A program made the position numbers. From NCBI RefSeq assembly GCF_056712565.1, contig NZ_CM160072.1: a stretch of 64,000 nucleotides of DNA. One strand, given 5' to 3'. Below, piece by piece: positions 4,430-7,400 of this stretch (positions are counted from its first letter, which is position 1; each line of letters starts with the position of its first letter).

Positions 4430-7400
4430 TAACAAAAGCAATTTTTCCGGCTATCTGTATACAAAAACGCCGTAAAGTTTGAGCGAAGTCAATAAACTCT
4501 CTACCCATTCAGGGCAATATCTCTCTTGCAGGTGAATGCAACGTCAAGCGATGGGCGTTGCGCTCCATATTGTCTTACTTCCTTTTTTGAATTACTGCAT
4601 AGCACAATTGATTCGTACGACGCCGACTTTGATGAGTCGGCTTTTTTTTGCCTGTTATTTATCAGCGTCTACCCTTTAAGAGTCCACCCAATGACCGGAG
4701 GGAAATATGACGACACTTATTTATTTGCAAATTCCTGTCCCTGAACCGATTCCTGGCGATCCTGTTCCAGTACCCGATCCGATCCCTCGCCCGCAACCCA
4801 TGCCTGACCCACCACCCGATGAAGAACCGATTAAATTGTCGCATCGTGAGCGTAGATCTGCGAGGATACGCGCCTGCTGACTTTGCGTCGATGACCACGA
4901 GAATAGATTGTGACCGCTTTTTCTACCCTGAATGTTTTGCCTCCCGCCCAACTCACAAACCTTAATGAGTTGGGTTATTTAACCATGACGCCGGTGCAGG
5001 ACGCCGCGCTTCCGGCGATCCTTGCCGGAAAAGATGTTCGCGTGCAGGCGAAAACCGGCAGCGGCAAAACGGCGGCTTTTGGCCTCGGCTTGTTACAGCA
5101 AATTGATGCGTCGCTATTTCAAACCCAGGCTTTAGTGCTGTGTCCTACGCGTGAACTGGCGGATCAGGTGGCAGGTGAATTGCGTCGGCTGGCGCGTTTT
5201 CTGCCAAATACCAAAATTTTGACGTTGTGCGGTGGTCAACCGTTCGGTATGCAGCGTGATTCGTTGCAACATGCGCCGCATATTATCGTGGCAACGCCGG
5301 GCCGTTTGCTGGATCACCTGCAAAAAGGCACTGTATCACTGGATGCGTTGAATACGCTGGTGATGGATGAGGCCGACCGCATGCTGGATATGGGATTTAG
5401 CGACGCCATTGATGATGTCATCCGTTTTGCGCCAGCATCTCGGCAGACGCTTCTGTTTTCGGCAACCTGGCCGGAGGCCATCGCCGCAATCAGCGGAAGA
5501 GTGCAACGCGATCCTTTAGCGATTGAAATTGACTCAACAGATGCTCTGCCACCTATTGAACAACAATTTTATGAGACATCCAGCAAAGGCAAAATTCCTC
5601 TGTTGCAACGGTTATTAAGCTTGCATCAGCCATCCTCTTGCGTGGTGTTTTGCAATACCAAAAAAGATTGCCAGTCTGTCTGCGACGTGCTGAATGAAGT
5701 AGGGCAAAGTGCATTGTCGTTACACGGCGATCTGGAGCAACGCGATCGCGATCAGACCCTGGTACGTTTTGCTAACGGTAGCGCCCGTGTACTGGTCGCG
5801 ACTGATGTTGCTGCGCGTGGTCTGGATATAAAATCGCTTGAGCTGGTGGTGAACTTTGAGCTGGCGTGGGACCCTGAAGTTCATGTACATCGCATCGGTC
5901 GTACAGCTCGTGCAGGAAATAGCGGTCTGGCGATCAGTTTCTGTGCCCCGGAAGAAGCACAGCGGGCCAATATCATTTCTGACATGTTGCAGATAAAACT
6001 TAACTGGCAAACGCTGCCAGCGAATAGTTCCATTGTGCCGCTGGAAGCAGAAATGGCAACGTTGTGTATCGATGGCGGGAAAAAAGCCAAAATGCGCCCG
6101 GGTGATGTATTAGGTGCGCTGACAGGAGACATCGGGCTTGATGGCGCAGATATTGGCAAAATCGCCGTGCATCCGGCGCATGTTTATGTCGCGGTGCGTC
6201 AGGCTGTTGCTCATAAAGCATGGAAACAGCTACAGGGCGGGAAGATTAAAGGAAAAACGTGCCGGGTGCGGTTATTAAAATAATGAAATGTTGAATCGCA
6301 GGGTGCAAGAGTAAACATCTTCTTCGGGATTGCCGGATGCGACGCTGGCCGCGTCTTATCCGGCCTCCATAAGAGTAGCCCGATACGCTTGCGCATCGGG
6401 CGCTATCCTGGTTATTTCACTTCAACCACATTCAGCCGTAACTCATCCAACTGATTTTCATCTTCTTCAGGCTGCCAGCCCGACGGTTGTAGTGGGATCT
6501 CTTCGCGATCAAACGCCAGATCACCCCCGTTAACCACTTCAGAACCGTGAGTAATGCCTTTAAAATCGAACAGGTTGGTATCGCACAGATGTGACGGCAC
6601 CACATTCTGCATCGCGCTGAACATCGTCTCGATACGCCCCGGATAACGTTTATCCCAGTCACGCAACATGTCAGCAATCACCTGACGTTGCAGGTTAGGC
6701 TGTGAACCGCACAGGTTGCACGGAATAATCGGGAACGCTTTTGCATCGGCAAAGCGCTGAATATCTTTCTCGCGGCAGTAGGCCAGCGGACGAATCACGA
6801 TATGTTTGCCATCATCGCTCATCAGTTTCGGAGGCATACCTTTCATCTTGCCACCGTAGAACATATTTAAGAACAGCGTTTGCAGGATATCGTCACGATG
6901 GTGACCCAGCGCGATCTTCGTCGCCCCCAGTTCCGTTGCGGTGCGATAAAGGATACCGCGACGAAGACGAGAACACAGTGAGCAAGTGGTTTTGCCCTCC
7001 GGAATCTTCTCTTTCACGATACCGTAAGTGTTCTCTTCAACAATCTTGTACTCAACGCCCAGCGTTTCAAGATACTCGGGCAGAACGTGTTCCGGGAAGC
7101 CCGGTTGCTTTTGATCGAGGTTAACAGCCACCAGCGAAAAATTGATTGGCGCGCTTTGCTGCAAATTGCGCAGAATCTCCAGCATGGTATAGCTGTCTTT
7201 ACCCCCGGAGAGGCAAACCATGATGCGATCGCCTTCTTCAATCATATTGAAGTCAGCAATGGCTTCGCCCACGTTACGACGCAGACGTTTTTGTAATTTG
7301 TTCAGGTTGTATTGTTCTTTCTTTGTAATTTGTTGATTTTCTTGCATTATTTCAGTTCTCTGGTACTAAATGGGGCATATTGAGGGCAAACTTTGCAACT

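What the first reader, a model, noticed from the sequence alone, without database searches (positions are those of the whole stretch)
4707..4880. Unlisted proline-rich 57-codon ORF with a strong Shine-Dalgarno site between FnrS and dbpA
A GGAGGG is placed 6 nt before the ATG, and the ORF encodes an unusual P-x-P-rich peptide ending 30 nt before the dbpA GTG start. It could be an independent small protein or an upstream ORF controlling dbpA translation; Pro-rich stretches are known ribosome-stalling, EF-P-dependent sequences. I do not recognise it as a named gene.
Basis: partly seen in the sequence, partly recalled or inferred. Interest (0 to 1): 0.35.

Follow-up and report, generated by a model that had tools for sequence, protein, structure and literature searches.

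The report
Known proline-rich small-protein gene ynaL
The ORF is real but is the already named and experimentally detected E. coli small-protein gene ynaL (b4743), just upstream of the helicase gene dbpA; its function is still unknown, and its last ~50 bases also carry a DNA/RNA signal conserved independently of the protein.

Summary
The ORF at 4707-4880 (+) exists as described: ATG, GGAGGG Shine-Dalgarno site, 57 codons, 28% proline. It lies between FnrS (4528-4645) and dbpA (GTG 4910). It is not unnamed. It is ynaL (b4743, "proline-rich small protein YnaL", Pfam PF23677). It is annotated in about 5,390 complete E. coli genomes and identical in sequence to the protein VanOrsdel et al. 2018 detected by chromosomal SPA tagging.

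Across 80 dbpA loci from Enterobacteriaceae, 68 keep the ORF directly upstream of dbpA, with a conserved ATG and SD. The core DPVPxPDPIPRPQPMPDPPPDEE shows pN/pS 0.13 at saturated synonymous divergence, so the peptide sequence itself is under selection.

The idea of a uORF or EF-P sensor controlling dbpA is untested, and the comparative data lean against a classical attenuator:
- No conserved RNA structure or terminator lies between ynaL and dbpA.
- The stop position shifts by about 30 nt in 12 species.
- PPP is missing in 4 species.
- Kluyvera lost the ORF but kept the dbpA leader.

New here: the last ~50 nt of ynaL (4827-4845 and 4854-4877) are invariant at all codon positions. They persist in genera without ynaL and may be an internal dbpA promoter. 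Verdict: already known; low interest.

The parts
4528..4645 (+). FnrS sRNA (context). Its intrinsic terminator has a stem at 4622-4641 and a T-run at 4642-4649.
   Evidence: Rfam RF01796, 134.8 bits, E=9.7e-26; terminator scan; K-12 annotation.
4647..4675 (+). Candidate ynaL(-dbpA) sigma-70 promoter: TTTGCC (4647-4652), 17-nt spacer, TACCCT (4670-4675). It overlaps the end of the FnrS terminator. Inferred only.
   Evidence: Hexamers and the 17-nt spacing are kept in 66 of 68 loci while the spacer sequence varies. The -10-like hexamer is TACCCT in 58 loci, TACGCT in 7 and TACCTT in 3. The consensus scanner does not flag it because the -10 matches only 3 of 6. No TSS data were found.
4697..4702 (+). 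Shine-Dalgarno site GGAGGG of ynaL, 4 nt upstream of the ATG.
   Evidence: Sequence. Positions 4697-4701 are 85-97% conserved in 62 non-Escherichia loci. A GGAGG-type SD is present in nearly all loci.
4707..4880 (+). ynaL CDS (b4743), the 57-aa proline-rich small protein YnaL.
   Evidence: ORF list; RefSeq annotation WP_001296046.1 / YP_009518775.1; Pfam PF23677, 136.9 bits against a cut-off of 27; sequence identical to the one in PMC6001520.
4752..4829 (+). Conserved peptide core (codons 16-41, P.DPVPxPDPIPRPQPMPDPPPDEEP) under protein-level purifying selection. Predicted to be an extended Pro-rich rod.
   Evidence: Codon positions 1 and 2 are about 1.00 conserved and position 3 is 0.05-0.94 (below 0.8 at all but the last codon). 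pS 0.650, pN 0.082, ratio 0.126, against 0.087 for dbpA. AF2 gives pLDDT about 90 over residues 21-40, no secondary structure, pTM 0.22.
4809..4817 (+). Three consecutive Pro codons (P35-P37) in the context D-PPP-D. This is a strong-class EF-P-dependent stall motif judged by sequence only.
   Evidence: Sequence. Motif hierarchy from PMC5811046. PPP is kept in 65 of 69 sequences; L007, L010 and L013 have DPSPD and L044 has DPPQED.
4827..4845 (+). Box A: CCGATTAAA[T/A]TGTCGCATC. It is conserved at all three codon positions and partly kept in Kluyvera, which lacks ynaL.
   Evidence: Per-column conservation. pS is only 0.162 for these codons against 0.65 in the core. Alignments.
4854..4877 (+). 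Box B: AGATCTGCGAGGATACGCGCCTGC, a nucleotide-level element independent of the ynaL frame. It is a candidate extended -10 (TGC-GAGGAT, 4859-4867) with a GC-rich discriminator (ACGCGCC, 4868-4874) for an internal dbpA promoter. Function not established.
   Evidence: 4857-4874 is about 98-100% conserved (4861: 82%) in 62 non-Escherichia loci, including 12 where ynaL stops upstream of it. It is kept as TCTGCTAGnATACGCGCC in 6 loci lacking ynaL. The scanner flags ATGACC-N17-TAGAAT with an upstream TG at this position in L076 but not in L072 or L078. No RNA structure was found. It occurs once per genome.
4899..4923 (+). dbpA translation-initiation region: invariant GAGA (4899-4902, a weak SD), GTG start (4910), and the first four codons conserved at synonymous sites as well.
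   Evidence: column table; annotation of the dbpA start.
4910..6283 (+). dbpA, the ATP-dependent RNA helicase gene downstream of ynaL.
   Evidence: ORF list; RefSeq annotation.

Best explanation
The ORF is ynaL (b4743), a genuine and already catalogued small-protein gene of Escherichia and many other Enterobacteriaceae. It is translated from its own strong SD and ATG. It sits on the same strand as dbpA with no terminator between them, so the two are probably co-transcribed from a promoter-like element overlapping the FnrS terminator (inferred). Its product most likely acts as a protein. It has a variable, mildly hydrophobic N-terminus. It has an invariant acidic P-x-P core (DPVPxPDPIPRPQPMPDPPPDEEPIK) that is predicted to form an extended polyproline-type rod with no globular fold, the kind of segment that usually serves as a docking or spacer element. 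It has a basic tail that is dispensable in about 12 species. What it binds is unknown. A role linked to DbpA or 50S assembly is only suggested by synteny. Shown: the ORF's identity, its annotation, published detection of the protein, and purifying selection on the peptide. Inferred: co-transcription, the promoter, and action in trans. The last ~50 nt of the gene are also constrained at the nucleotide level by a dbpA upstream element that predates ynaL or is independent of it.
For: Identity: 100% DNA match, annotated ynaL 'proline-rich small protein YnaL', in 5,390 of 5,426 complete E. coli genomes. K-12 b4743 lies at 1409308-1409481. Pfam PF23677 covers the full length at E=2e-40. Expression: the identical 57-aa sequence is listed among SPA-tag-detected small proteins and was positive in tetracycline ribosome profiling (PMC6001520). 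Conservation: 164 homologues, all PF23677, from Citrobacter, Enterobacter, Klebsiella, Salmonella, Kosakonia, Leclercia and others. The ORF with ATG and SD is present directly upstream of dbpA in 68 of 80 independent loci. All length variation is in frame, 46-64 aa. Core pN/pS is 0.126 with pS 0.65, equal to the pS of dbpA. There is a clear period-3 conservation pattern. Structure: AF2 shows no secondary structure, pTM 0.22, and confidence only along the Pro-rich rod. No terminator lies between ynaL and dbpA.
Against: No function, partner or phenotype is published in the searchable library. The N-terminal 15 residues are poorly conserved. The C-terminal 11 residues are untranslated in 12 species, and their apparent conservation comes from the DNA, not the peptide. 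Kluyvera lost the gene, so it is dispensable in that genus. Selection on a peptide sequence is also expected for a cis-acting arrest peptide, so pN/pS alone does not prove action in trans. Detection of a tagged fusion does not prove that the native peptide is stable.
Confidence: 0.62

Rival explanations
1. ynaL is mainly a cis-acting regulatory upstream ORF. Ribosomes slow or stall at D-PPP-D when EF-P, its modification, or Pro-tRNA is limiting. This changes dbpA expression, either through loss of transcription-translation coupling (Rho-dependent polarity on the C-rich ynaL RNA) or through altered delivery of ribosomes to the weak GAGA/GTG start of dbpA 29 nt downstream. Expression of a peptidyl-transferase-centre assembly helicase would then be tied to how well the ribosome makes Pro-Pro bonds.
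For: PPP, DPP and PPD are strong-class stall motifs (PMC5811046). PPP is kept in 65 of 69 sequences. ynaL is always immediately upstream of dbpA on the same strand, with no terminator between. dbpA has only a GAGA SD-like motif and a GTG start. EF-P loss causes Rho-dependent polarity at polyproline ORFs in E. coli (PMC5021804). There is precedent in the Pro-codon leader ORF mgtP (PMC3641672).
Against: No conserved alternative RNA structure exists (z-score 0.11; RNAalifold found 2 trivial pairs). PPP lies about 95 nt from the dbpA start, beyond the reach of a stalled ribosome. The ynaL stop moves by about 30 nt in 12 species with no change downstream, and gaps range from 14 to 63 nt. E. albertii and two Citrobacter loci have no consecutive prolines. 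About 25 residues around the motif are constrained as amino acids, whereas the mgtP peptide can be scrambled. Kluyvera and outgroup genera keep the dbpA upstream element without ynaL. If Box B is an internal promoter, part of the dbpA mRNA lacks ynaL altogether. The available EF-P/EfpL ribosome-profiling supplement does not list ynaL.
Confidence: 0.22
2. The ORF is translated but has no function of its own. Its conservation is a by-product of nucleotide-level constraints on the dbpA upstream region, such as promoter, UTR or rut elements.
For: Parts of the ORF (Box A and Box B) are indeed constrained as nucleotides and not as codons. The gene is absent from Kluyvera and outgroup genera.
Against: In codons 16-41 the first two codon positions are essentially invariant while third positions vary among all four bases. 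pN/pS is 0.126 at saturated pS. ATG and SD are conserved and all indels are in frame. A non-coding constraint would not produce a strict period-3 pattern.
Confidence: 0.04

Closest known systems
YnaL (E. coli K-12 b4743; Pfam PF23677 'Protein YnaL-like'; VanOrsdel et al. 2018, PMC6001520)
   Same: Identical 57-aa sequence, the same fnrS-ynaL-dbpA position, and the same coordinates as the RefSeq CDS.
   Different: Nothing differs; the finding is this gene. What is added here is comparative detail: the selection pattern, truncated forms, loss in Kluyvera, and an overlapping nucleotide-level element.
mgtP and mgtL, the proline-codon leader ORFs of the Salmonella mgtCBR and mgtA operons (PMC3641672)
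   Same: A short ORF with an SD and consecutive Pro codons, upstream of and co-oriented with the gene it might control. Both are possible sensors of Pro-tRNA or EF-P.
   Different: mgtP has 17 codons, sits within alternative stem-loops, and works with a scrambled peptide. ynaL has 46-64 codons, has no conserved stem-loops or terminator, and its peptide sequence is under selection.
EF-P-maintained transcription-translation coupling at polyproline ORFs (Elgamal, Artsimovitch and Ibba 2016, PMC5021804)
   Same: A polyproline-encoding, C-rich ORF lies upstream of another gene in the same transcript, which is the configuration in which EF-P loss gives Rho-dependent polarity.
   Different: That is a generic effect shown with reporters and a few operons. 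ynaL-dbpA was not examined, and no rut site or termination product is documented here.
Pro-rich spacer of TonB
   Same: Compositional resemblance of the P-x-P and acidic segment (NCBIfam NF008084, E=2.9e-4). Both are likely extended rods.
   Different: The score is 20.8 bits against a cut-off of 315. There is no TonB N-terminal anchor or C-terminal domain. This is not homology.

Membership tests
YnaL (Pfam PF23677 / RefSeq 'proline-rich small protein YnaL') | Full-length match to the family profile above the gathering score | tested here: met
   136.9 bits against a cut-off of 27, residues 1-57 on profile positions 1-57.
YnaL (Pfam PF23677 / RefSeq 'proline-rich small protein YnaL') | Same sequence and coordinates as the annotated and published gene | tested here: met
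   RefSeq CDS ynaL maps to window 4707-4880. K-12 b4743. Identical 57 aa in PMC6001520.
YnaL (Pfam PF23677 / RefSeq 'proline-rich small protein YnaL') | Synteny: between fnrS and dbpA, same strand | tested here: met
   The position upstream of dbpA holds in 68 loci.
Leader-peptide transcription attenuator (mgtP, hisL or trpL type) | Alternative RNA stem-loops or a terminator overlapping or following the leader ORF | tested here: not met
   No terminator-like site between 4650 and 5036 on the + strand. MFE z-score 0.11. RNAalifold consensus is essentially empty, with no covariation.
Leader-peptide transcription attenuator (mgtP, hisL or trpL type) | Regulatory codons invariant while the rest of the peptide is free to vary | tested here: not met
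   PPP is absent in 4 of 69 sequences, 3 of which have no Pro-Pro at all. The surrounding 23 codons have pN/pS 0.126.
Ribosome-arrest peptide regulators (SecM, TnaC or Erm-leader type) | Stall site positioned so that the stalled ribosome exposes the downstream start site | tested here: not met
   The PPP codons at 4809-4817 lie about 95 nt from the GTG at 4910. No intervening conserved structure exists. The stop position is variable.
Ribosome-arrest peptide regulators (SecM, TnaC or Erm-leader type) | Demonstrated translational arrest | not testable with these tools
   This needs toeprinting or Ribo-seq. The EF-P/EfpL supplement that was searched has no ynaL entry.
EF-P-dependent polyproline proteins | Contains a strong-class XPPX motif (PPP, DPP, PPD) | tested here: met
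   D34-P35-P36-P37-D38. Motif hierarchy quoted from PMC5811046.
EF-P-dependent polyproline proteins | Protein output or ribosome occupancy changes in delta-efp | not testable with these tools
   No data for ynaL were found.
TonB | Score above the NCBIfam cut-off, with TonB N- and C-terminal domains present | tested here: not met
   20.8 bits against a cut-off of 315. Only the Pro-rich stretch aligns.
Sigma-70 extended -10 promoter (for Box B, 4854-4877) | TGn plus a -10 hexamer with A at position 2 and T at position 6, a suitably spaced -35, and a mapped TSS | tested here: inconclusive
   The ynaL+ clade reads TGC-GAGGAT (3 of 6) with no good -35 at 16-19 nt. Outgroups read ATGACC-N17-TGC-TAG[A/C][A/C]T, flagged by the scanner only in L076. 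No TSS data were retrievable.

The most novel reading that the evidence does not exclude
ynaL may be a dual-purpose gene. (i) Its PPP-containing, selection-constrained peptide could report in cis on the ribosome's capacity for Pro-Pro bond formation (EF-P status or peptidyl-transferase-centre competence). This would set expression of DbpA, a helicase that remodels that same region of 23S rRNA during 50S assembly, giving a feedback loop between peptidyl-transferase function and its own assembly factor. (ii) Its 3' end is overprinted by an invariant dbpA control element (Boxes A and B) that is older than the ORF. That would suggest ynaL arose by 5' extension of translation into a pre-existing dbpA leader or promoter. 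A further speculation, from memory only: the PRP-type Pro-rich core resembles ribosome-tunnel-binding Pro-rich peptides, so YnaL could act on ribosomes in trans.
Probability: 0.1. Interest if true: 0.6.

Novelty: already known. Interest (0 to 1): 0.15.

Why it matters
The finding as stated adds nothing new. ynaL has been named, annotated and experimentally detected since 2018 and has its own Pfam family. The residual value is that its function is still unknown. This analysis gives concrete, testable constraints:
- The functional part is the roughly 25-30-residue acidic P-x-P core, not the tail.
- A classical attenuator mechanism is unlikely.
- The gene's 3' end overlaps an unusually invariant, locus-specific element upstream of dbpA, which any genetic manipulation of ynaL will disturb. 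That includes the published 3' tagging.

If the EF-P/DbpA link were real, it would connect polyproline translation to 50S biogenesis.

Tried and rejected
- **Structured RNA element or riboswitch in the ynaL-dbpA junction.** Rfam at E<=1 found only FnrS. The single-sequence fold is no better than shuffles. RNAalifold on 25 diverse sequences found nothing. Rejected.
- **Box B hairpin GCG-AGGAUA-CGC as a CsrA-type site.** Rejected, because C4861A in 11 species and the G-to-T and GGA-to-GCA/GAA/GAC changes in outgroups break both the stem and the GGA.
- **Box A/B as a dispersed regulatory motif.** It occurs once per genome in 5,392 genomes and once in the window. Rejected.
- **TonB homology.** Compositional only. 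Rejected.
- **Conserved overlapping +1-frame ORF (MKNRLNCRI...DLRGYAPA).** Its length and end vary from 30 to 79 codons, and it is sometimes fused to dbpA. It is a by-product of the invariant DNA. Rejected.
- **N-terminally extended dbpA.** An in-frame stop lies at 4904-4906 in E. coli. The frame relation of upstream ATGs varies among species. Rejected.
- **Published TSS or transcript-boundary evidence for a dbpA or ynaL promoter.** Six papers' supplements were searched without a hit. Led nowhere.
- **Published EF-P dependence of ynaL.** Not in the EF-P/EfpL supplement, which was cut when stored. Led nowhere.
- **DbpA autoregulation by a 23S helix-92 mimic in Box A/B.** Considered from memory. 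No UGUUC-loop hairpin is present in the leader. Not pursued.
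Full report
**Observation.** The window carries an ATG-initiated ORF of 57 codons at 4707-4880 on the + strand. It encodes MTTLIYLQIPVPEPIPGDPVPVPDPIPRPQPMPDPPPDEEPIKLSHRERRSARIRAC, which is 28% proline. Upstream, Rfam places FnrS at 4528-4645 (134.8 bits), and its intrinsic terminator stem is at 4622-4641. The description is therefore accurate apart from these small numbers.

**Identity.** The ORF is not unlisted. A megablast of 4500-4960 against 5,426 complete E. coli genomes matched 5,392 of them. The feature under the match is annotated 'ynaL: proline-rich small protein YnaL'. In the 100%-identical record the CDS WP_001296046.1 maps exactly to window 4707-4880. In K-12 MG1655 it is b4743, YP_009518775.1, at 1409308-1409481, between fnrS and dbpA. 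Pfam has a dedicated family, PF23677 'YnaL', which the ORF matches end to end at 136.9 bits against a cut-off of 27. The identical 57-residue sequence is tabulated in VanOrsdel et al. 2018 (PMC6001520). It is one of 36 small proteins detected by immunoblot after chromosomal SPA tagging, and one of 13 that had also appeared as unidentified positives in a tetracycline ribosome-profiling screen. The authors note its position next to dbpA and suggest a possible operon. No other paper in the searchable library deals with it, so its function remains unknown.

**Conservation.** A protein search returned 164 homologues, all carrying PF23677. They come from Citrobacter, Enterobacter, Klebsiella, Raoultella, Salmonella, Kosakonia, Leclercia, Lelliottia and related genera. 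To avoid depending on gene calls, I fetched 80 dbpA loci from distinct species and examined the DNA upstream of dbpA.
- 68 of the 80 loci carry the Pro-rich ORF directly upstream of dbpA on the same strand. Nearly all have an ATG and a GGAGG-type SD.
- Lengths range from 46 to 64 aa, and all length differences are in frame.
- Per-column conservation over 62 non-Escherichia loci shows a textbook coding signature in codons 16-41. Codon positions 1 and 2 are essentially invariant, and position 3 varies among all four bases.
- Nei-Gojobori counts over 2,084 well-diverged pairs give pS 0.650 and pN 0.082 (ratio 0.126) for the 23-codon core DPVPVPDPIPRPQPMPDPPPDEE. The first 120 codons of dbpA give pS 0.643 and pN 0.056 (ratio 0.087).

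The N-terminal ~15 residues are variable and mildly hydrophobic. AlphaFold2 with a 34-sequence alignment gives no secondary structure and pTM 0.22. Confidence is high only along residues 21-40, which fits an extended polyproline-type rod and not a fold. A weak NCBIfam hit to the Pro-rich spacer of TonB is compositional only, at 20.8 bits against a cut-off of 315.

**The uORF/EF-P idea.** Several features favour it.
- The motif D-PPP-D combines three strong-class stall triplets (PMC5811046) and is kept in 65 of 69 sequences.
- dbpA has only an invariant GAGA as an SD-like element, and a GTG start.
- No terminator separates the genes.
- EF-P loss is known to cause Rho-dependent polarity at polyproline ORFs (PMC5021804).
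- Salmonella mgtP is a precedent for a Pro-codon leader ORF (PMC3641672).

The comparative data lean against a classical attenuator or arrest-peptide switch.
- The junction RNA folds no better than shuffled sequence (z = 0.11). RNAalifold on 25 diverse sequences finds no consensus structure or covariation.
- The PPP codons lie about 95 nt from the dbpA start.
- In 12 species the ORF ends about 30 nt earlier, after ...SHR or ...MSR, so the stop-to-start gap ranges from 14 to 63 nt.
- E. albertii and two Citrobacter loci have DPSPD with no consecutive prolines at all.
- The mgtP peptide can be scrambled without loss of function, whereas some 25 YnaL residues are constrained as amino acids.
- Kluyvera species have lost the SD and codons 1-41 but retain the sequences immediately upstream of dbpA.

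I found no ynaL entry in the EF-P/EfpL ribosome-profiling supplement. A generic polarity effect of the PPP motif on dbpA in EF-P-limited cells remains plausible, but it is untested.

**An element not in the finding.** The last ~50 nt of ynaL behave differently from the rest.
- Box A (4827-4845, CCGATTAAA[T/A]TGTCGCATC) and Box B (4854-4877, AGATCTGCGAGGATACGCGCCTGC) are conserved at all three codon positions. pS falls to 0.16 in the Box A codons.
- Box B is unchanged in the 12 species where ynaL terminates before it (apart from C4861A in seven of them and one A-to-G change in L039). It persists as TCTGCTAGnATACGCGCC in Cedecea, Dryocola, Siccibacter and Enterobacter sp. Ag1, and unchanged in Kluyvera. 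All of these lack ynaL.
- It is single-copy in every E. coli genome and in the window, and it is not a structured RNA.

The outgroup sequences read ATGACC-N17-TGC-TAG[A/C][A/C]T followed by ACGCGCC, which is a sigma-70 promoter with an extended -10 and a GC-rich discriminator. The scanner flags this in Dryocola but not in Cedecea or Siccibacter, where it falls one match short. In the ynaL+ clade the equivalent is TGC-GAGGAT-ACGCGCC, which lacks a good -35. This is weak as a promoter, yet invariant. The outgroup ATG of 'ATGACC' also opens 14-25-codon ORFs that run through Box B in the same frame as the YnaL tail. Two of them end in GTGA, overlapping the dbpA start, so a mini-uORF reading cannot be excluded there. 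I could not retrieve any published TSS for this locus. Box A/B is therefore an unexplained dbpA-proximal control element. An internal promoter is my leading guess, at roughly 40%. If correct, part of the dbpA mRNA would not contain ynaL at all.

**A second promoter-like element.** TTTGCC(4647-4652)-N17-TACCCT(4670-4675) overlaps the FnrS terminator tail. It is conserved with fixed spacing and a variable spacer in 66 of 68 loci, and CTACCCT is also kept in four of five Kluyvera loci. It would give ynaL a 5' UTR of about 25 nt.

**Verdict.** It is, however, the known gene ynaL, so the novelty class is 'already known' and interest is low. The best-supported reading is a bona fide small protein whose acidic P-x-P core is the functional part (confidence about 0.6). 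The cis-regulatory uORF/EF-P reading is a live but weaker rival (about 0.2). The only new observation is the overprinted, frame-independent element in the gene's 3' end, which deserves a TSS-mapping experiment.

Noticed in passing
window 4827-4845 and 4854-4877: Two blocks inside the 3' end of ynaL are invariant at all codon positions across about 70 species. Box B is also kept in genera that lack ynaL and in 12 species where ynaL stops before it. Candidate internal dbpA promoter (extended -10 TGC-GAGGAT plus GC-rich discriminator ACGCGCC) or an unstructured RNA operator. Single copy per genome.
   Followed up: partly
window 4647-4675: The promoter-like pair TTTGCC-N17-TACCCT overlaps the FnrS terminator T-tract. 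Hexamers and spacing are conserved in 66 of 68 loci while the spacer varies. It would drive ynaL(-dbpA). The consensus scanner does not flag it.
   Followed up: partly
L070, L071, L073, L074, L075, L080 (Kluyvera), about 150 nt upstream of dbpA: Kluyvera species have lost the ynaL SD and codons 1-41 but keep Box A and Box B (CTACCCT in all but L080, which has CTACCTT). L075 and L080 retain a 14-codon remnant ORF, MSH..ARSARIRAC.
   Followed up: partly
L024, L029, L032, L039, L041, L047, L049, L054, L055, L057, L058, L062: In 12 species YnaL ends about 10 codons early (after ...SHR or ...MSR), using three different stop codons. The basic tail RSARIRAC is therefore not needed as peptide, yet its DNA stays invariant.
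   Followed up: yes
L007 (E. albertii), L010 and L013 (Citrobacter), L044: The PPP motif is replaced by PSP, leaving no consecutive prolines anywhere in the protein, or by PPQ. An EF-P-dependent triple-proline stall is therefore not universally conserved.
   Followed up: yes
L004 (E. coli strain E69), 2331-2471: A natural in-frame 11-codon deletion within the repetitive P-x-P region gives a 46-aa YnaL.
   Followed up: no
L072, L076-L079 (Cedecea, Dryocola, Siccibacter), -74 to +4 relative to dbpA: An ATG about 62-74 nt upstream of dbpA opens 14-25-codon ORFs through Box B in the YnaL-tail frame. In L072 and L078 the stop overlaps the dbpA start (GTGA). In L079 the ORF is fused in frame to dbpA.
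   Followed up: partly
window 4899-4923: dbpA has only an invariant GAGA as an SD-like element, and a GTG start. Synonymous positions of its codons 2-4 (ACC GCT TTT) are also conserved, which suggests a constrained translation-initiation region.
   Followed up: no
window 3388-3435: A 15-codon annotated small-protein gene (ynaN, labelled ydaN in some records) sits 14 nt upstream of zntB.
   Followed up: no
NZ_CP087578.1 (E. coli OSUCMP42NDM), hit H30: The query region is split into two places, with the break near window ~4735. This suggests an insertion inside ynaL in this strain.
   Followed up: no
summary lines: Six of about 5,390 matches to the ynaL region lie on records labelled as plasmids.
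   Followed up: no
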